A stretch of 62,991 nucleotides of DNA, counting the filler. It is 11 parts of 11 records of this genome, joined end to end, with 100 filler letters (N's around TTAATTAATTAA, not from the genome) between each part and the next. Parts side by side here need not be neighbours in the genome. Positions count along the whole stretch, not along the records: positions 42,292 to 49,582 come from SRR7504441_1060; 10 more parts are not named here. One strand, given 5' to 3'. Under the pieces are notes generated by a model, which saw only the letters and a program-made list of their open reading frames with translations, was not told the DNA's origin and ran no database searches. The number at the start of each line of letters is the position of its first letter. Position 1 is the first letter of the stretch. This document shows positions 35,754 to 55,784 of the stretch, in pieces. A program made the position numbers and the translations under genes.

Positions 35754-38700
35754 ATGCCGGTGCTGTATGACGGGGAGACCCGTATGTTCCGGCTATACAC
35801 CAGCAACGTGCTGTACGCCTTCCGGATCGACCCCAAGGCCGCCCCCGCCCGCCGGCCGCCGGCTCACCCCCGGGGCAGGGCCTGCTCGAGCACCTGTACT
35901 GGGGCCGCAAGCTCCCGATCAGCGACGACCTGCGCTACACCCTGGCCTGTGCGCCGCCCCCCCCGCGGGGGCTGACCCCGGGCCAGCCAACCCGTCGCTC
36001 ACCTTCGACCCCAGGGACGCCCAGGGCACCTCAACGGTTGGACTAGATGTGATGCTCGGGGCGGCTCGGTCGTCCAGCGAGGAAGCCGAGCGGAGCATCA
36101 CCGCCGCCTGGCGCGAGGCCACCACCAACAAGGCGCCCCCGGCCGGCTGACCGGCTGAGCGGCCCGCAGGACACCTCCACAATCGCCGGGATCGCGGCTC
36201 GCCGGAGGGAGAACCTTAGTTGGCGGCAGCTGAGCAAGATCGCAAAGAAGCAGCAGGGCGGGCTGCTCACGCTGGACGATCTAGACCCGGCGGTGCTGGC
36301 CAAGTGCCGGCTGGACCCAGGCCCGGAGCCGCGGATGCGCCGGGACAGCTCGCTGCTCGACCTCGCCTGTGAGCCTAGGTTCCCGGTGAGCCGGCCGCAG
36401 TCAGTGGACAACCTAGCTGGGCTGGCTGAGGGCATGCCGGTGCCGCGGACCGAGTCGCTGGGCAACCTGTCCGACTTTGATCTGGGCGTGACTGAAGCCG
36501 CCTGGGGGCACACCGGCCACTCTCTCTCAAAAGTGCTCCATCCCTGGAGCTTCGCTTACACAGGCGACCACCCCGCCCCGCGCGCCCCGTCGCCAGGTGG
36601 CCCGCCCTCGGCCGGTGTTGCAGTCCATCCGGGGCGCAGAAACACCGTTAGGGACCGAGGGCTCGGCTGTTTCTCTCCATTCAGACCTTTCTGACCTGCA
36701 TGAGGAGCCCAGCACAGAGTTTGTCACCGGCTCCAAAAACGCCCAGCTGCTCGAGTTTGGAGACTTTGGCACAGGTCGGGAGACAATCAGGCCGGTCCGA
36801 GCCGGCGCCAGGTGATTACAGGACCCCGTCGATGATTGTTCAGTACCCGGACGGTTCGACGATCTCTAAAATGGAGTACAAGGTCGTGCCCCAATGGGCC
36901 CTTAAACCCGCTGCCAGAGCCACACAATCCACGCCGGAAAGCTGGACATCGAGCCAGCGCTCCCGGGCTTTTGTGGCGAATCCGACGAGGAGGCAAGCGG
37001 CCCTGGAGGGCGCTGGCTGAGGTGGAGCAGGCTAGCACGCTGGTGGTAACGCTTGTAGACCAGCTCACGATGCTCGAACTAGACTTGATCTTCTTCGCTT
37101 TCGACTGGCTCGATGTGCTGATCAGACAGGCGCGCCCGCTACCCTCGGAGGGGCGCTGAGTGGCTGCACAGGTGCGGGTGCGTAACTGTGGGTCTGGCCC
37201 GGTGGCAATTAAAAAGCTCCAGTCATGTTCGATGGACTTTGACGCCAACACGTAACGAGTTCGATGCGCCCACGGGTGAGCGGGCAGCAGGTACTATCTG
37301 ACGCATCTGTCGGGTGCCTGGGCGAGGGAGCGAAATGTGACGAGTCAGCGGCTGTTGGACGGGAATGTGTGCATCGGCTCGCTTAGGGGCACCTCCTCTC
37401 ACCAGCACAATCCGTTCGCCATGATCTCGGTTAGCTGCTAGCTCAACAGCCGATTAAAGCCCGGTCTCAGGTGGGGGCGCCTGATGAGGACAAGGCCAGC
37501 TGCTACGGGTTCAGCCTGGTCTATTCGGGCAATTGGCAGGCCGAGTCGCAAGTCACTGAGACAGGCCGTTTGAGGTTTGGCATGGGGATTAACCCGACGG
37601 CCTTCTCTTGGACGCTGGAGCCGGGCCAGCAGTTCAGCACTCCGGAGTGCCTGATGGTGTTCTCGGACGCTGGGCAGGGTGAGCGCTGCCCGGGCACCGC
37701 ATGCCGGATAAGGGGTTGTTGGCAGGGTTGCTCAGTCGGAGGATGCACAGAGCGGTGAGGGATCGGCTTTGCCCAAAGCACTGGCGGACTGCGCCGCGAC
37801 CGGTGCTCGTTAACAGTTGGGAGGCGTTTTACTTTGACGTGAACCATAACAAGATGCTCGAGTTGGCCAGGGCGGCCAAGCTCGCCGGGATAGACTTGGT
37901 CGTGCTCGACGACGGCTGGTTTGATGGCCGGAATAGCGCCAACACTTCGCTCGGAGACTGGACTCACGACACCGGCAAGTTCCCGCGCGGAATAGGCGTT
38001 CTGGCCGAGATGGTTGTGGCGGAAGGCATGCAGTTCGGACTCTGGGTCGAGCCGGAGATGGTGACCGCTGCTTCAATTTGTGGATTTGAATTCGGGCAGG
38101 TTTCGGTCGAATCCAAGCTGTACAGCGCTCACTCGGATTGGTGCTTGCATCACCCAGGGAGGACAAGGACTGAGGGCCGGAACCAGCTCGTGCTAGACTT
38201 GTCGCGGCAGGAGGTCTGCGATTATGTGTATGATAGCCTGGACGCGCTGCTTAAAGGTCAGATCTGTCCTTGAACCAGATAGCGCCCATGCCTCAATGAT
38301 GCTTTACTTTAGATTTCTGTTCACTGAGACCTTCTGTGAGGAATCCTTATAAAAGTTCCTGAGAGATGATACCAATAGACCTGATGTTGCTGCCTGTGAG
38401 AGGCGGGATGACGGCTGTGCTGGCAGATGGCTTCATCACGTACATTAAGTGGGACATGAATAGACATCTGACTGAAGTCTTCTCCAACCCACTCCCCGCT
38501 CAAGCCCAATGCGGCGTGCCTCACAGGTGGCCGACCCGCCCGTGCCGCACTCACCGCCACGCAGGTTTGTGCTCGGGGTTTATCAGATACTCTCGAGAAT
38601 AACCAATAAATACCCGCATGTGCTCTTGGAGACATGTTCGGGTGGCGGAGGTCGTTTTGACCTCGGAATGCTCCGCTTCTCTCCCCAGATTTGGACTTCA

Positions 38701-42291: not shown

Positions 42292-42741
42292 GCAGCAGCG
42301 GCCAGCGAAACCACTGTCAGCGACGGAGTGTGGATCACCACTGTCAGCGAGGGCCCACCGAGCTCCCCGCGGCCGCATTCCGGGGCGGCGATCAAAGCGC
42401 ACTATGTTGGATACCTGCCGGGAGGCGGCGTGTTTGATTCGTCCAGGGAGCGAGACGAGCCGCTCGAGTTCACTCTGGGGCACGGCGAGGCAGCCATCAG
42501 CCCGGGCGCTCCATCAATCTGACGGTCAGGTGATCGAGTGCTGGGAGTTGGGGCTGATGGAGATGAGGATGGGCGAGCGAGCCACCTGTGCCCCGGTCGG
42601 CCGCGCAGAGACTGAGTGGTGGGGACAGTGAGGTGCTCTCCTGAGGTGGCATATGGTTCGCACGGGGCCGGCGGAGTGGTCCCGCCCAACGCCGAGCTGA
42701 CCTTCGATATCGAGCTCCTCCGGGTCTACAACGTAGCATAG
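42292..42741 (+). CDS. FKBP-type peptidyl-prolyl isomerase (5' partial)
   Basis: [56 protein letters not shown]...[18 protein letters not shown] intron 42490-42529. Confidence 0.92.
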
Positions 42742-42754
42742 TCCTGACTTAGTC

Positions 42755-42910
42755 TACGACTAGTCTACTCGTACAAAGAGCTCTCTTATTGACTGGCTCC
42801 TCACAGTGAGCTTACTCGTCCAGTACAGTCAGTACCTACTCGTACGTACTCGTCGAGTACTCGTAGCTAAAAACAATAGAATCGATCAATACGAGTACAT
42901 ACATGTATAG
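42755..42910. repeat. TACTCGTA/GTAC-rich tract between convergent genes
   Basis: TACTCGTA at 42766 and 42837, CGAGTACTCG palindrome, TACGAGTA at 42890. Confidence 0.7.
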
Positions 42911-42933
42911 TCTCAGTCAACTCGGCACGGGAA

Positions 42934-44968
42934 TCAAAGTTTCTTGAAGTGCTGCTTGTTGCTGAATCTGGGAGGCCCGCATTGAGGAGCAAGCAGTACG
43001 TGCTTGAGGGCAAGCAGCTCGCGGTGCTCCGGCCAGTGCATTTTCTGGCACTGCTCACTGCAAAAGCACACCTCACAGCTGAGCGTGCACCGCCGCAGCC
43101 CGCTCGTTTGGCCACACTTGGCACAGCTAAGCACAGACAGCCTTCTCTCCGGTCCCTGACTCCCGGCCTTCCAGACAGTGAGTTCGTAGCTAGTGTTGCC
43201 CCAGTTGGGAAGGTCGACTCGCTTGACCAGCCGCCAGCCGGCACTCAGCTGCTGCTGGAACTCTATGCTGCCAGTATCGCCCAGCCATTCGCCCACCAGC
43301 AGCAGCGTCCGCCCACCTGCCTTGCCATACCTGCATCGGAGCCGTCAGTCGCTCCCCACACACCCGCACGCACGTCTGCAGGGCCAGCCGAGCCATCGGA
43401 CTGGCTGGCGGCGGGTAGCACAAGAGCAGCGCACGGTCCGCATGCCTCTGAAGCACGTCCGTATCCCCTCGAGCCACCTGCTCTTAATTAAGCCGCTGAT
43501 GATCGATGCAGGCCGCACCGGTGACCACTGCTTGGCTCGCCCATGGTATTGGTTATGCTCCACACTGGTCGGGCTCTTATCATACGCCACCAGCTCCACC
43601 TTGTGCTCCCGCGCTATCCAGGCCCAGTACCTGCTCCCACTCGCCCCGACAAGCCGGCCGCCCACCCCAGTCCAGCCCCAAACTCCACCAGTGCCCCGTG
43701 CCGCCCAAGCTCCGCCACCGCCGCCGGGCCTGGCACCGCGTATGCATACAGGTGGCAGCAGAAATCGCGGCACGAGTCGCGCCACTCGGCCAGCAGCGGC
43801 TCGGCCCTAGGGTCGCCACCCTTCATCTGCCAGACTGTCAGCCCACACTAGAATCGGCTGCACCGTCAGGATCTGACCCTTGGCTGGCGGGCGAGCCTTG
43901 CACTCGGCCAGCCCTCTCAACCGGCTCGCACTGAACCGCTCGGCCGTTTCGAGCCACCGGGCTTGGAACAGCCGGAGCAGCGGGTTCAGCTTGCCAGCTC
44001 CGAATCCGATCACCTGCCCAGGCTCGCGGCTCCCACGCTGCCCGGCCACCTCCCGCAGCACCGCCCGCCCGGCTGAGCCAGTGAGCTCGGCTCGGGCGTA
44101 CTCTTCTAGAGTATCCGGGCCGGCCGCCCAGCCGAGCCCACTGAAGTATTCATCGGGAGCCGGGAGACTGGCAGCTGGCTCGGCCTGTGCCAGGTAGAAA
44201 AGCCGATAGTACAGCTCATCCAGCTTGATGAGCAGCTGCCGCGGTTCAGTCGGCCGCCGGCCCGCCAGCTACCCGGATCAGGCTCGGTCTGCTCTCGTCC
44301 AGATCCTCCGCCCCGACCAGTTTGATTGCCTCACTGTGAGCGCTGTCAGAGGCTGCCAGCCGGCACCGGCACCGATGGTAGGCGATCATGGCAGCCCCGG
44401 TGGACGGATCCTTGCAAGCTCGCTGCACGGCCGCCAGCCCCGGGCCGAGCTGGCCAAGCCACTCGGCACACCAGGCGGCGCTCCCTCGCATCCCGATCGC
44501 CACCCGCGCGTTCCTAACCTGCACGAAGCACCGGTGCAGCGTCCGGGCCATTGCAGTGGCCGGGGCGGCGGCGGTCTCGAGCTGGTGCGAGGTGGCCGGG
44601 TAGCCGCAGCTGGGGCAGGTACCGGTGAGCTGGCCGGTACCAGGGCCCGGGCACTCGCACTCCACGCAGGTGGACAGCCGCCACAATCCGGCTGGGGCAG
44701 GGCCAGCTTGCTGCGCGACCACGGTCCTCTTGCGCTTCTGGCTCTTTGGAGCAGTGCGCTCGGCAGGACCAGCGGCAGCGGGCTGCTGCACGAGCTCAAA
44801 GTTGCGAGCCCGAAGCCGGTGCGTGCTGCCGTCGGGCATGCGCACCAGCCAGCGGCCCGAACCGGCCGGGTCGCGGCCGGTCAGCTCGCCGATCAGTCCG
44901 TTCAGCCGTGTCTTGTGCACCAGCCCGAAGACCTTGCACAGGCTCGCCCGGTCCTGGTGACGGCCCAT
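42934..44968 (-). CDS. Class I SAM-dependent methyltransferase-like protein with C-terminal MYND-like zinc finger
   Basis: YAYAVP...LVEFGAG..YWA...VAYD...LLLCYPPP...VGEWLGDTG...LPNW; CAKC...CTLSCEVCFCSEQCQKMHWPEH; N-terminal VFGL...LNG...GRWLVR module and CxxC pairs. Confidence 0.65.
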
Positions 44969-44991
44969 CGCGCTGAGAGCCGTTGAGAAAG

Positions 44992-45830
44992 ATGGCCAGG
45001 CAGGTGCTTTCCCCAACACAGTGGCTGACCGGTGCGGGTCAGCGTGAAGAAGCCGGGCGGGGCTGATCTCGAGCTGCTCTTCAAAGGCAGGCGTGCTCTC
45101 CCAAGCGGTGGCTGACCGGTGCGGACCAGAAATCGACCTGGACGGCAGCGGCGAAATCTCGTTCAAGGAGCTTACCGGCTTCCTCAAGGGCGCTGCCATC
45201 CCGCACGAGGCTGAGGCACCGGGCACCCCCAGCCCGCCGGCCAGCCGGGGCGGCAGATGCTCAAACGGTTGATGCAGAAGTGCGACGCTGGTGAGCTACG
45301 CCCGCGGCCGGCTGGCGAGGCTGGTGGGGAAGATGGGAGCGCCTCTCTCAACTTCAAGGAATTTAGAATGGCCGGCCCTCTGCTGATGGACATGAAGATG
45401 GTGGCCATGATGCAGGCGCAGGCCAAGAACCCGCCGGCCGACGTGCAGCCGCCCGGTGGGCGGGCATGAGCCTGCCGGCAGGGGCTGCCGCAGAGCACCG
45501 ACGAGATGAAGGCGCTCTTTGACCGGATAGATGCCGACGGGTCCGGCTCACTGGACTTCGAGGAGATAAGGGGGTGACACACAGCACGGTGGGCGGGGGC
45601 GAGTGGTGGCAGGTATCTAAAAGGGGCCGGGCACGAGTTTGATAAAACTTTCCTGGAGGAAATGATTAAGAATGCGGATACAGGTCATCAGCAACTGGTG
45701 ATGCTCTTACTGGTGGCAGATGGGGATGGCACATTAGATTTCGAAGAGTTCCGGATGGTGTGACCAGCCGCGCCTTTGGCCACAGCGGGTGCAGGTGCTG
45801 TGGATGATGGAAGCTAAGCTGGGTAAGTGA
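44992..45830 (+). CDS. Calmodulin-like protein with four EF hands
   Basis: Loops DLDGSGEISFKE, DADGSASLNFKE, DADGSGSLDFEE, DTDGDGTLDFEE after removing eight short introns (three GC-AG). Confidence 0.88.
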
Positions 45831-46143
45831 GCTATGAGGGTAAGCAAAGGTGTTGGCTTGCGCACCATCCGGGACTCTTCCAAATCTAATTTACAGCACC
45901 TGCATGTACATTTCGGCTATAGCACAGTTTCAGCTTCATCAGTGAATTAACATAAACTCGGAAGTTTCTATAAAATCATTTAGCCTTTTATTCTAGCCCA
46001 CACCCTCAATCCTCCGACCAGAACTAGAATGTCGAATGAAATATCCTACACCCCAGTTTCGTAGCCTTTTATTCTATACGTACGTACCAGCTCGGAGGAC
46101 GGAGGCACCTAGCGATATACCTCACCAGCAATGTCCAAGGAGT

Positions 46144-49100
46144 TTATAACTCTTCTTCCGCATAAGCTTCCGGTTCGTGTAGTTGCGACTCCGCCATATG
46201 CATCTTGCGACAGTTTTGTGCAAAGAAGCCACCTCCAGCCACGCTAACTGCAAGCTGGGGCATCTTGCCGTACGCCATCTGCAGCTGGAGCAGTTGCAGC
46301 TCGGCCTCTCGGTGCGGCATTCCTGCAGCCATGGCTCAGCAGCTGCCAGCGGGCTCGCCACCGGATCGCGCCTGAACATCCTCCAACCAGAACTGGGCTG
46401 TGCGGTAGAACGTCGAATTGAAATATCTGTGGCCTGGCTAAGAGGCCGACCCCGGTGGCGGACACCCGTCAGCGCTCGCATTGACAGTGGACTCCCAAGA
46501 GCTGCTTGGCCAAAAGAATTCAGAAGCTGGGTCGTTTAGCGCTCCCTGTGCCGTGCTCACTCAGCTGCTGAGGCGGAGGCGCACCTCGACCGCCAGATTG
46601 CTGTCGTTGTCTAGCATCCCGCCACGCCAGACGAGCATCCTGTTGATCTGATCGAGGTTAGGCGCGCCCCGATGGTCGCCCTCGACAATGCTCCGCATCG
46701 CTCCGAGCAAATCCGCACCTTGCGGCTTGAGACAGTCCATCAACTACAGCCAGGCGGTCAACCAGGCGCAAGTCAGTGGCGGCACCTCGAGCGCAGACAT
46801 CTCCAGTTCCAGCACCTGCAACGCCCAAACGCGCCTGTTGACCGAGAAGTCCTGCAGCCTCTCCCTTGCCTCCACCTCTGGGTACCTGCTCGCAGTCTAA
46901 GTGGTGCTCAATGGCGTCGCAAACCCACCTGGCTTGCAGCTCGGCATATTTGGCCTCAAGCGCACTGAGTGTGATGCAATTCAGGCATTGCCGGGCCAGC
47001 TGGCCTGGGCTCATGGCCCCGTGTGTCATCCGGGTGCTGTGCGGATACTGCCCCACGCCACACGAGCCCGCAGTAAACTCGTCGTTGCATAGCGCCACTT
47101 CCATATCCCGCAGCTGTGTCAGCTTCAAAGCCTGCTCGATATCGGCGGTCCGTGCGCCGGAGGGCTCGGCAGCAGCCAGTGTGAGCACAGTGAGTGCTGC
47201 ATGCGTGCGCTGCAGCTTGGAATTCCCCCGGGTGCATAGCGGCATCAGAGCCTCTGCTGCACGTCTACAATCCTCACTAGTTGGGTCTGCCGAGCTCTTC
47301 TGCAGCTGGAGCTGCCACTGCAACTGGAGTAGCGCAGTCTCTGGCTCGGAGCCCTGCTTGGCCCCCTCGAGCTCTTGCCGGATGAAGTGCTCGAGTGCCT
47401 CGATCGCAGGACTGCGGTTAGACTCTTCCACATCAGCTAGCACAAATTGGAGCATATCACCCAGCCGGCGCTGCCTGAACATGAGCGCAAGGACTTCATA
47501 AAAGAACACTGGACCGAATTGAGGGGTGATTCGGGTGACATATTCAACCAGCAAGGCCCGGCCAGCAACAGCGGTGGGCGCGCGGAGTGCGACATGTGCT
47601 AGGGTGGTACAGTCACAAAACTCCTCGGCCAACTGCTGCGCTGAGAGTGGGTCACAAAGCACCAGCTTGCATAGCACCTTAAGCCAGCCAACTCACCAAA
47701 CTGTAGCACGAGGTGGGGCACCTGTGAGCGCTTGCTGCCTTGCATCGGATTATGCCACGTTCCAGCATAGTCAGCATCCTCATAGGGCCCCTCAGCAATG
47801 TCTGCACCCGGCTTGAGCCCGTGAGCCCGGTGCGCTGACAGATAGATCCTCACTAACTGCACCAGTGACCGCTTGAGCTGGCACAACACGCCCATGCTCA
47901 GTTCAGCACAAGGCAGCTGATAGGCCACCTGGGGTGCCCAGGAGCCCTCAGGCCTATTAGTGACCAGCGTGGCCATCCACATAACCAGCTCATACAGCGA
48001 GTGTCGGTACTCATACGGCAGCCTCGGGAAGTGCACGGTCATCTCTTCGACAACAAATCCATCTTCCTTCTGTCGCTGCTGGTACATCTGGACTAGGGTG
48101 GCCAGCAAAGCTTCGTACATCATCGAGACAGCAGCAGCCACCTCGTACATGTCTATGTCGGCCAGCTGCTCAAGCGCCTGCTTGGCTTCCCATACCCCCT
48201 CCAGAAACTCTGGCAGGGAATGTGTGTAGCCGTACAGCCAGACCATACCGTTCACATTCGGATTTGCTGCCTCGTCGCTGCAAACGCAACACTCACAATA
48301 CCTAGCCCTGGGCCAAGTACCTGCGGCGTTTGATCCATGCCTCGCCTGAAGCAGCTTGCTGCGCCTGCTGGCATGCTGCTTCCCGCATCCGCCGGGTGGC
48401 CTCGCTGAACAGCTGGGAAACCACTCGCGTGTGCCCTGGCTCTCCAGTCTGGAGCTGGAATAGTTGCATTGATGCATAGAGCAGCGTGTGCTGCTGCAGC
48501 AAGTCGGCCCTCCCGGCCGGCCCTAGCTGGTCTAGCAAGCTGCATTGCCCTCGTGCAAACTTACCTGTCAAACTGCTCAGCCTGGGCCAGGGCAGCAGCT
48601 GGCACCTTCGAGCGCCAACATCTCTATGAACTTAAAGTGCCTCTGGAGCTTCTGCTGCAGCATCTCCATCACCTGCCGCCCAGTCGGCTGCGCCAGCGCT
48701 TGCCGGCACCAGATTGGCCGCGCGGTTGTCCCCAGACTCCACTTGCTGGAACGAGAGGATCCCAAAGTCGGCTGCCTGCAAGATGTGCTCCCTAGAGCAC
48801 TCGAGCACTGCCGCGTTCAGCTCGGCGGCCCCCGCATCTCCAAGCCCTGTGCGCATCAGACGGTCCAATTCGGCGGTCTCCTCCTTCCAGAAGTGTGCGA
48901 ACGCGGCCCGCAGCTTGGGTGTCAGCTTGTGATCTCCAGCGTCCCACTGCATCGGGTCCAGAAGGTTCAGGACGCCACACGGAGCAACGAACCGGGCCTG
49001 ATCCGCCAACACACCGACCGCCAGCACCGCGTCGCGCTCGCCGAGGTTGAGCATTGAGCTTGATCTGAACAGAGGTTCGCGAGCGCGAGGCAGTTGGACT

Positions 49101-49582
49101 GCGACTCGCGGGAACACGGCAAACGCAGCAAACTGCACCGCAACAAACGCCACAGGCAGCGCATCCGAGCAGCCCAGCTCGGCCAGCCGCCAGGTGGCCA
49201 CCTCGCTGAACTGATCGGGCCGGTCGGCCGGCCAGTGTGGCTTGCCGGAGCTGAGTGGCACTGATAGCTCGACCACTCGCAGCCCTCCGTCAGCCTGATC
49301 GAGCACAAGCAGACGGGCATCTGAGTCAGTCAGCTCGGCGGTGCAGACAGCAGTGAACCGGCAGTGGCCGGTGCCCAGCTGCGGCTCGCCCTGAGGGAAG
49401 ATGCCCTCGAGCGCATTGTCGGCGAGCTTGCGAGGGAAGCTGTGGCTGCTATTGAGTGCCCAGAGCTCGAGACAGAACAGCCCAGCCTGCTGCTTGAGCA
49501 AGTAGCACCACACCTCGCTCTGCCCCTGGCGGCCCTCGATCGAGGTGCAGCTGAGGTACTGTGGCAGTTCTGCCTCAGCTGG
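46144..49582 (-). CDS. NUP133: Nucleoporin Nup133-like (5' partial)
   Basis: Beta-rich N-part then helical stack with LQQKLQRHFKFIEML and QLAEEFCDCTTL...QFGPVFFYEVLALMFRQRRLGDML, resembling Nup133 motifs (LAEKYCDF). Confidence 0.6.
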
Positions 49583-55483: not shown

Positions 55484-55784
55484 CGCGCCCGGGGACCCGC
55501 GCTGGCCGATACCCTTCTGCAGGTTCTTCTCCTACGCCCGCAGCTCATGCCCGGCCCGACTGTGGAGAGGCCACCCGACACCACTGATTGTGCGTGAGCT
55601 TCTTCGGAGGCGAGCCGCAGCTGAGTTTATTCATATATGCCCGATACCCTTCTGCAGCTTTCCCCGGCGAGTTTTCATTCCATTTCTTGCGGTGTACCGG
55701 CTCCGGCGGCTGCCCCGGCCAGTCAGCCGGGCCCTGGCCGGCCGGGCGCCTCGCTCATCGCGCGCGCCACGCCCTCCTGGATCA

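What the first reader, a model, noticed from the sequence alone, without database searches (positions are those of the whole stretch)
45000..45129. Two near-identical sister GC-AG introns in one gene
Seen: intron 1 (45000-45042) GCAGGTGCTTTCCCCAACACAGTGGCTGACCGGTGCGGGTCAG and intron 2 (45087-45129) GCAGGCGTGCTCTCCCAAGCGGTGGCTGACCGGTGCGGACCAG. Both are 43 nt, share an exact 17-mer, follow exonic AG, sit in different phases (2 and 1), and have unrelated flanking exons. Known: introner elements create families of similar introns. Inference: recent intron gain by local copying or a tiny introner, with AG as possible target duplication; this could also explain the AG|GC excess.
Basis: partly seen in the sequence, partly recalled or inferred. 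Interest (0 to 1): 0.75.

Follow-up and report, generated by a model that had tools for sequence, protein, structure and literature searches.

The report
Copied mini-intron pair in one gene
Two 43-base introns that lie 44 coding bases apart in a calcium-binding-protein gene of an uncultured marine protist are copies of one another and are both removed from the RNA, a rare but already described trace of an intron being copied to a nearby site in its own gene.

Summary
45000-45042 and 45087-45129 are both 43 nt, GC..AG, and follow exonic AG in phases 2 and 1. They share an exact 17-mer found nowhere else in the window. "Near-identical" overstates it: 32 of 43 letters agree ungapped.

One metatranscriptome contig (run X3) skips intron 2. 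It then runs on with the 8 letters that precede intron 1, so both are absent from the RNA. The gene encodes a 172-aa protein with four EF-hands.

The pair is the clear outlier among 91 pairs of 14 RNA-supported introns, and no shuffle reaches its score. The flanking exons are unrelated, so this is not a segmental duplication. I found no third copy in 63 kb, no terminal inverted repeats and no special fold.

Best reading: a non-segmental same-gene intron duplication, as known from fungi. I favour DNA-level short-range copying during repair, because the same gene holds a second ~46-nt copy, inverted, ~90 nt away. Reverse splicing is the main rival.

The pair does not explain the general AG|GC excess. 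Earlier notes of this scan report similar pairs on other DNA of this genome.

The parts
44989..44999 (+). End of exon 1: last known 5' letters of the RNA contig, start codon ATG at 44992-44994, then GCCAG
   Evidence: The 8-letter loose end AAGATGGC of the X3 contig equals 44989-44996. Reading frame.
45000..45042 (+). Intron 1: 43 nt, GC..AG, phase 2
   Evidence: The X3 RNA contig runs from 45040 back into AAGATGGC, so 43 nt are missing with a 3-nt CAG ambiguity. Only 45000-45042 gives GC..AG. The evidence is one contig with 8 letters.
45043..45086 (+). Exon 2: 44 nt, encodes (S)VKKPGGADLELLFK(E), the first helix of EF-hand 1
   Evidence: Covered by the X3 contig (side 45); translation.
45087..45129 (+). 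Intron 2: 43 nt, GC..AG, phase 1
   Evidence: Joint 45084->45128, skips 43 with 2 shared letters, in X3 contig record 5 (455 nt, depth 28.5). Boundaries refined.
45021..45037 (+). Shared exact 17-mer, copy 1; holds the branch-site-like CTGAC, with its A 14 nt from the 3' end
45108..45124 (+). Shared exact 17-mer, copy 2
45130..45215 (+). Exon 3: loop and second helix of EF-hand 1
   Evidence: Pfam EF-hand_1 on 45132-45215: E 1.1e-4, 21.9 bits (below the curated 25.4). The match starts at profile position 9, so the first 8 positions lie on exon 2.
45216..45794 (+). Rest of the gene's split part. RNA-supported introns: 45216-45256 (41 nt, GC-AG), 45291-45332 (42), 45443-45481 (39), 45574-45612 (39), 45684-45719 (36), 45758-45794 (37). 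The last five are GT-AG.
   Evidence: Joints in X3 and X4 RNA contigs; boundaries.
45733..45778 (+). Source (or copy) of a second short-range duplication: last 25 nt of exon 8 plus first 21 nt of intron 8
45845..45890 (-). Inverted copy of 45733-45778 in the 3' untranslated part. 39 of 47 alignment columns agree.
   Evidence: blastn E 9.8e-7; 0 of 30 shuffled zones gave a hit with E<0.01. Alignment. The region is present in RNA contigs of X3, X4 and X5.

Best explanation
The two stretches are working U2-type GC-AG mini-introns of one EF-hand (calmodulin-like) gene, and one is a copy of the other placed 44 coding bases away. The copy took the intron and nothing of the exons. This is a non-segmental same-gene intron duplication.

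Shown: both are absent from the RNA; their likeness is far beyond chance; the flanks are unrelated; the window holds no further copy.

Inferred mechanism, which I favour: a DNA break in the exon was repaired by short-range templated synthesis. The repair used the neighbouring intron, 87 bp away, as template, primed on the shared AG. Because the copied patch carried its own donor, branch site and acceptor, it could be spliced out at once and the gene survived.

I put about 0.85 on 'one intron is a local copy of the other' and about 0.45 on the DNA-repair route in particular.
For: Splicing: X3 RNA contig record 5 skips 45087-45129 and continues upstream of 45040 with AAGATGGC (= 44989-44996). 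Both 43-nt stretches are therefore missing from one RNA molecule model. Their removal gives an open 172-aa reading with four EF-hand loops, and the exons hit Pfam EF-hand models.

Common descent: score 24 against a next best of 14 among 91 intron pairs; 0 of 20000 shuffles reach it. 12 of 200000 permutations reach the match count at the 28 non-signal positions.

Intron-only copy: the flanks score no better than shuffles.

Local: these are the only 2 copies in about 62 kb and they lie 87 nt apart. By my arithmetic, two randomly placed copies would lie that close with probability of about 0.003.

DNA-level route:
- The same gene holds a second patch of like size (46 nt) and distance (~90 nt) that is inverted and includes 21 nt of intron 8. 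Reverse splicing cannot make that (0 of 100 shuffles reach 26 of 28).
- A 12-nt exact inverted copy of another nearby spot lies 2 nt from that patch.
- The mismatches of the intron pair are patchy: 9 of 17 against 2 of 21, Fisher p 0.005.

Earlier unchecked notes of this scan report other copied intron pairs, and break-repair-like intron candidates, on other DNA of this genome. I treat these as leads only.
Against: The RNA evidence for intron 1 is one contig of one run with 8 overhanging letters. That RNA could also come from an allele without the intron. No DNA run covered 45000-45129, so the assembly is not independently checked there.

The repeat ends exactly at the intron's first and last letters. 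Reverse splicing predicts this directly; the repair model explains it only through selection.

Templated repair insertions are, as I recall, mostly shorter than 43 nt.

The inverted 46-nt copy shows that local DNA copying occurs here, not that it made this intron.

At 74-76% identity the event is not fresh, so junction signatures may be eroded.

Family size in the whole genome is unknown.
Confidence: 0.45

Rival explanations
1. Intron transposition at the RNA level. The excised intron reverse-spliced into a new site of its own transcript (AG|), the RNA was reverse-transcribed, and a short stretch of the cDNA recombined into the gene.
For: The repeat coincides exactly with the intron, first to last letter. 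It has the same orientation, lies in the same transcript, and both sites follow AG. This is the route that the literature offers for non-segmental same-gene duplicates (PMC3609843 and PMC3443670, passages read).
Against: It needs reverse transcriptase, and a recombination tract shorter than the 44-nt exon so that the parent intron is kept. It does not explain the patchy divergence. It cannot make the inverted 46-nt copy in the same gene. No direct evidence for it here.
Confidence: 0.3
2. Both introns are insertions of a very small mobile intron-making element (a mini-introner) that has more copies elsewhere in the genome, with AG as a target duplication.
For: Published introner families reach median lengths as low as 30 nt, copy numbers as low as 5, and up to 50% GC donors (PMC9860276, passages). 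Earlier unchecked notes report small copied-intron families in this genome.
Against: No third copy in 63 kb, by 17-mer with up to 3 mismatches, blastn, nhmmer and repeat search. No terminal inverted repeats: 0-3 of 12 terminal letters pair. AG or CAG is just the splice consensus. Two independent insertions 87 nt apart are unlikely without local hopping. A look-up of the 45-nt stretch among earlier findings found nothing.
Confidence: 0.12
3. Two old, independent introns that look alike through shared splicing constraints, chance, or gene conversion between them.
For: The shared GCAGG start, CTGAC and CAG are functional signals. The 3' half is far better kept than the 5' half, as conversion or constraint might give.
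Against: With the signals set aside, 18 of 28 positions still match, reached by 12 of 200000 permutations. None of the other 12 RNA-supported introns carries this sequence. Conversion would need prior likeness.
Confidence: 0.05
4. Tandem duplication of an 87-bp segment (intron plus 44-nt exon) followed by divergence of the exon copy.
For: Spacing of 87 equals intron plus exon. Half of the fungal same-gene duplicates are segmental (PMC3609843, passage).
Against: Neither the 44 nt upstream of intron 1 nor the 44 nt downstream of intron 2 resembles exon 2 (3804 and 3244 of 5000 shuffles reach the scores). A 44-nt exon copy would also shift the frame.
Confidence: 0.02

Closest known systems
Same-gene duplications (SGD) of near-identical introns in fungi, non-segmental type (Collemare, van der Burgt and de Wit 2013, PMC3609843; passages read). 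That text cites three gained introns in C. elegans as comparable.
   Same: Two introns of one gene resemble each other while the exons beside them do not. Copy number is low. Length and fold stability are ordinary.
   Different: A different lineage (a marine protist) with much shorter introns (43 nt) and GC-AG ends. The pair is only 74-76% identical, so it might fall below a BlastN 'near-identical' cut-off. The same gene also holds a second, inverted short-range copy.
Introners / introner elements (Micromonas, Aureococcus and many aquatic eukaryotes; Gozashti et al. 2022, PMC9860276; passages read)
   Same: Introns that share sequence because they were copied. Length and GC-donor use fall within the published ranges.
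   Different: Only two copies are known, both in one gene. No terminal inverted repeats and no recognisable target duplication beyond AG. Family status is untestable without the genome.
Intron transposition by reverse splicing (reviewed by Yenerall and Zhou 2012, PMC3443670, passages; cases listed there for Mycosphaerella and Oikopleura)
   Same: A new intron homologous to another intron, exact boundaries, at a site with no intron before.
   Different: No evidence here for an RNA intermediate, and the parent intron 44 nt away is kept.
[quoted passage not shown] 2011, PMC3020277, abstract only)
   Same: Short shared letters at the junctions (AG, CAG) and a DNA-level origin.
   Different: The filler here would be a ready-made intron copied from 87 bp away. 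I did not see this described in the passages I read.

Membership tests
Same-gene intron duplication (SGD), non-segmental | Two introns of one gene alike beyond chance | tested here: met
   Score 24 against a next best of 14 among 91 pairs; 0 of 20000 shuffles; 12 of 200000 permutations at non-signal positions. Identity is only 32 of 43 ungapped.
Same-gene intron duplication (SGD), non-segmental | Both are real, spliced introns | tested here: met
   One X3 RNA contig lacks both. Intron 1 rests on an 8-letter overhang.
Same-gene intron duplication (SGD), non-segmental | Exon sequence on either side is not duplicated | tested here: met
   Flank alignments are no better than shuffles: 3804 and 3244 of 5000.
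Same-gene intron duplication (SGD), non-segmental | No copies in unrelated genes (otherwise a low-copy or introner-like family) | tested here: inconclusive
   None in the 63-kb window. No genome is held. The metagenome scan was cut at 120 rows, all chance-like.
Introners | Family of at least about 5 copies per genome in unrelated genes (range 5 to >2000, PMC9860276) | tested here: inconclusive
   2 copies in 63 kb, both in one gene. The whole genome is not available.
Introners | Terminal inverted repeats (present in part of the families) | tested here: not met
   0-1 (intron 1) and 2-3 (intron 2) of the first 6-12 letters match the reverse complement of the end.
Introners | Target-site duplication of 3-9 bp (present in part of the families) | tested here: inconclusive
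   Only AG (intron 2) or CAG (intron 1) is repeated at the two ends. That equals the splice consensus.
Introners | Length within the known range (median 30-654 nt) | tested here: met
   43 nt.
U2-type GC-AG introns | RNA-defined removal with GC at the 5' end and AG at the 3' end | tested here: met
   Only the GC..AG placement fits among the 3 and 4 equivalent cuts.
U2-type GC-AG introns | Branch-site motif near the 3' end | tested here: met
   CTGAC at positions 26-30 in both, with the A 14 nt from the end. Its use as a branch point is inferred.
Introns made by tandem duplication of an AGGT-bearing exon segment | Intron or its flank is a copy of adjacent exon sequence | tested here: not met
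   No exon likeness.

The most novel reading that the evidence does not exclude
This protist has an active short-range DNA copying process: patches of about 45 nt are re-inserted about 90 nt away, in either orientation, during break repair. Whenever the copied patch happens to be one of its self-sufficient ~40-nt mini-introns, a new intron is born. The sister introns, the inverted exon/intron-8 patch in the same gene, and the other copied intron pairs noted elsewhere in this genome would all be products of one process. That would be a natural system linking templated break repair to intron gain.
Probability: 0.25. Interest if true: 0.7.

Novelty: new member of a known kind. Interest (0 to 1): 0.4.

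Why it matters
How new spliceosomal introns arise is still argued, and clean natural cases in which a parent and a daughter intron can both be seen are few. This pair is RNA-verified, intron-exact and local. It sits in a little-studied lineage in which, by earlier notes of this scan, such pairs recur. With the full genome, one could count sense, inverted and partial short-range copies and so tell RNA-level from DNA-level copying. For gene prediction, the case also shows that 43-nt GC-AG introns with an 8-nt first coding exon are real here.

Tried and rejected
- Whole genome: not held, so genome-wide intron clustering was impossible.
The best upstream likeness to the introns was 11 of 23 letters, and none continues with RYCAG. 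They look like chance hits in mostly GC-rich DNA.
- Candidate third copy at 37758-37802 (64% to intron 1; nhmmer E 0.29): it lies inside an open coding stretch, is not bounded by GY..AG, and is rejected.
- Rfam on 44700-46000: 0 matches at E up to 1.
- RNA folds of the two introns are no more stable than shuffles (z +0.8 and +1.5).
- A DNA run for presence/absence: X1 covers 45386-45594, 46013-46261 and 47063-47748 only, not the intron pair.
The spliced protein is a joined sequence that I could not hand in, so no homologue search was made.
- Look-ups of earlier findings by sequence and for relatives of the stretch: nothing.
- Introns 5 and 6 as a second sister pair: 4 of 3000 shuffles reach the score, which is not significant over 91 pairs.
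- Paper search for Telonema plus introns: 11 papers hold both terms and 10 were listed; none of the listed titles or abstract openings is on intron structure (listing only).

Full report
**What is there**

The window is a chain of about eleven contigs joined by spacers of 44 N, 12 letters and 44 N. The finding lies in the piece 42292-49582. No whole genome is held for it. Earlier notes of this scan call the organism an uncultured marine protist near Telonema with about 40-nt introns, many of them GC-AG. I did not test the taxonomy.

Both are 43 nt, start with GC, end with AG, and follow exonic AG. The exact 17-mer occurs at 45021-45037 and 45108-45124 and nowhere else in the window, even with 3 mismatches allowed. 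The repeat found by the tool is 44998-45042 against 45085-45129: 45 nt, 76% ungapped, spacing 87.

**Are they introns?**

I laid contigs of three RNA runs and one DNA run on the piece. One contig of metatranscriptome X3 (record 5, 455 letters, depth 28.5, all letters alike) shows five joints:
- It skips 43 nt at 45084->45128. With the 2 shared letters this is 45087-45129, GC..AG.
- It skips 41, 42, 39 and 39 nt further on.

Its upstream part ends at 45040 and then carries 8 more letters, AAGATGGC. These are the letters at 44989-44996. Because CAG ends both exon 1 and intron 1, this reads as exon 1 joined to exon 2 with 45000-45042 removed.

So both introns are absent from one RNA model. Three caveats apply:
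- This is one contig of one run.
- The intron-1 junction rests on 8 letters.
- An RNA cannot tell a spliced intron from an allele without it.

A second run (X4) confirms introns 3 to 5, 7 and 8 (introns 3-5 on record 10, introns 7-8 on record 11). Its contig record 10, the one that reaches furthest upstream, starts only 3 letters before 45128. The DNA run X1 does not cover 45000-45129.

Refined boundaries give 8 introns in this gene (43, 43, 41, 42, 39, 39, 36, 37 nt) and 6 in neighbouring minus-strand genes. Of these 14, 3 are GC-AG, and all 3 are in this gene.

**The gene**

Removing the 8 introns gives exons of 8, 44, 86, 34, 110, 92, 71 and 38 nt plus a last one, and an open reading of 172 aa with four EF-hand loops.

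Exon 3 alone hits Pfam EF-hand_1 from profile position 9 (E 1.1e-4, below the curated cut-off). Exon 6 hits EF-hand_5 (E 2e-6, above it). The first 8 profile positions of EF-hand 1 are on exon 2, so intron 2 splits a domain that only the spliced reading restores.

Without intron 1 there is no start codon in frame: the unspliced reading meets TGA at 45026-45028 (read).

**More than chance?**

- Among the 91 pairs of the 14 RNA-supported introns, the pair scores 24 in a global alignment. The next pair scores 14 and the median is 1. None of 20000 shuffles of intron 2 reaches 24, or a common word of 17.
- A stricter test sets aside the first 7 letters, CTGAC and the last 3 as splice signals. Then 18 of the other 28 positions match, reached by 12 of 200000 permutations.
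- The likeness is uneven: 9 mismatches in positions 6-22 against 2 in positions 23-43 (Fisher p 0.005). I cannot explain this with certainty.

**What kind of copy?**

The 44 nt before intron 1 and the 44 nt after intron 2 do not resemble exon 2; 3804 and 3244 of 5000 shuffles reach the scores. A tandem duplication of an 87-bp unit is therefore out. The copied unit is the intron, with at most the exonic AG.

There are no terminal inverted repeats and no unusual fold, and no Rfam family matches.

A third copy is not in the window by any of four searches. The one 64% look-alike, at 37758-37802, lies in an open coding stretch without intron ends.

By my arithmetic, two copies placed at random in about 62 kb would lie within 87 nt with a probability of about 0.003. 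So the copying was local, or the element hops locally.

It tells nothing about other copies.

**Mechanism**

Two routes make an intron-only local copy.

*Reverse splicing.* The excised intron reverse-splices into its own transcript, followed by reverse transcription and recombination. This predicts the exact boundaries, the sense orientation and the AG| site. It needs a recombination tract shorter than the 44-nt exon so that the parent intron is kept.

*Break repair.* A DNA break is repaired by short-range templated synthesis. This predicts proximity in the DNA and short shared letters at the junction (AG, CAG). It explains the exact boundaries only through selection for a spliceable insert.

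One observation from this gene tips me towards the second route.
- The last 25 nt of exon 8 plus the first 21 nt of intron 8 (45733-45778) recur, inverted, at 45845-45890 in the 3' untranslated part.
- 39 of 47 alignment columns agree (E 9.8e-7), and no hit with E<0.01 appeared in 30 shuffled zones. The 28-nt core has 26 of 28 matches, reached by 0 of 100 shuffles.
- A 12-nt exact inverted copy of 45790-45801 lies 2 nt beside it.

This patch has the size and distance of the intron copy, includes intron sequence and is inverted, so it was made at the DNA level.

That shows such copying acts at this locus. It does not show that it made the intron. I give the DNA route 0.45, reverse splicing 0.30, a wider mini-introner family 0.12, old introns made alike by constraint or conversion 0.05, and segmental duplication 0.02.

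**Comparison with what is known**

The closest described class is the same-gene duplications of near-identical introns in fungi: 82 members in the survey. Half of them are segmental. [quoted passage not shown] This pair meets the tested features of the non-segmental type.

Introner families range from 5 to over 2000 copies, have median lengths of 30-654 nt and up to 50% GC donors, and many lack inverted repeats and target duplications (PMC9860276, passages). Size alone therefore does not exclude a tiny introner, but copy number could not be tested.

The review PMC3443670 (passages) lists intron transposition and gain during break repair among seven proposed mechanisms, both with indirect evidence only.

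I found no paper on intron structure in Telonema: 11 papers hold both terms, 10 were listed, and I saw the listing only.

AG as a target duplication cannot be separated from the splice consensus.

The pair does not account for the AG|GC excess. The gene's third GC-AG intron is unrelated to it, and no relative exists elsewhere in the window. Two of the three GC-AG introns in this piece do share one origin, so copying inflates the count slightly here.

**Standing in this scan**

Earlier follow-ups reported copied intron pairs of 43-44 nt in other genes of this same genome, a myosin gene crowded with related mini-introns, and similar pairs in other genomes. A look-up with my 45-nt stretch found no look-alike among them. 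If those notes hold, the pairs are separate small families, which fits local copying of whichever intron is at hand. I did not check those notes.

**Verdict**

This is a real, RNA-supported and statistically clear pair of paralogous GC-AG mini-introns. It is a new member of a known but rarely caught kind. The route of copying is open, with a lead towards DNA-level short-range repair.

Noticed in passing
window 45733-45778 and 45845-45890: Inverted ~46-nt copy of the exon 8 / intron 8 boundary in the 3' untranslated part of the same gene (39 of 47 columns agree). In the pre-mRNA it could pair with the donor site of intron 8.
   Followed up: partly
window 45790-45801 and 45893-45904: Exact 12-nt inverted repeat of the intron 8 / exon 9 junction, 2 nt from the inverted patch above. 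Together they look like a patchwork of short local copies.
   Followed up: partly
window 45683->45871: One X3 RNA contig joins the end of exon 7 to 45871, skipping 187 nt, with the letters ATG between and GT..CC ends. The landing point is inside the inverted copy. It may be a cDNA or assembly switch, or an odd isoform.
   Followed up: no
window 45758-45794: Intron 8 removes the in-frame TGA at 45761-45763, so the protein runs on for 11 more residues (VLWMMEAKLGK) instead of ending at ..FRMV.
   Followed up: partly
window 44255-44968 (-): Open 238-aa reading on the other strand whose ATG lies 23 nt from the EF-hand gene's ATG (head to head). It has no Pfam match and no RNA contig cover. If real, the two genes share a minute promoter region or overlapping leaders.
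   Followed up: partly
window 45443-45481, 45574-45612, 45684-45719: Introns 5 and 6 (both 39 nt) share CGGTGGGCGGG; 4 of 3000 shuffles reach their score, which is not significant over 91 pairs. Introns 6 and 7 share the 3' end TGGTGGCAG. They may be older copies.
   Followed up: partly
window 45291-45332 and 45684-45719: Introns 4 and 7 sit at the same place (third loop residue, phase 1) of EF-hands 2 and 4 but are unrelated in sequence. This is the reverse of the sister pair, which is alike in sequence at unrelated places.
   Followed up: partly
window 45004-45005 and 45093-45094: Both sister introns carry a GTGCT, like the usual GTG donors of this piece, 4 and 6 nt inside the GC donor in use. 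Using the one in intron 1 would shift the frame.
   Followed up: no
window 55506-55522 and 55641-55657: Exact 17-mer direct repeat CCGATACCCTTCTGCAG, 135 nt apart, on another contig piece. On the minus strand it reads LQKGIG at the edge of an open reading.
   Followed up: no
window 45981-45995 and 46062-46076: Exact 15-mer TAGCCTTTTATTCTA twice, 81 nt apart, between the two convergent genes. It holds AATAAA on the minus strand.
   Followed up: no
window 46009-46032 and 46378-46401: 24-nt stretch (83%, E 0.053) of a coding exon of the minus-strand neighbour gene recurs in that gene's 3' part. Marginal.
   Followed up: no
window 5610-59512 (ten places): The window is a chain of contigs joined by spacers of 44 N, 12 letters and 44 N. 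Repeats and distances across these spacers mean nothing.
   Followed up: yes
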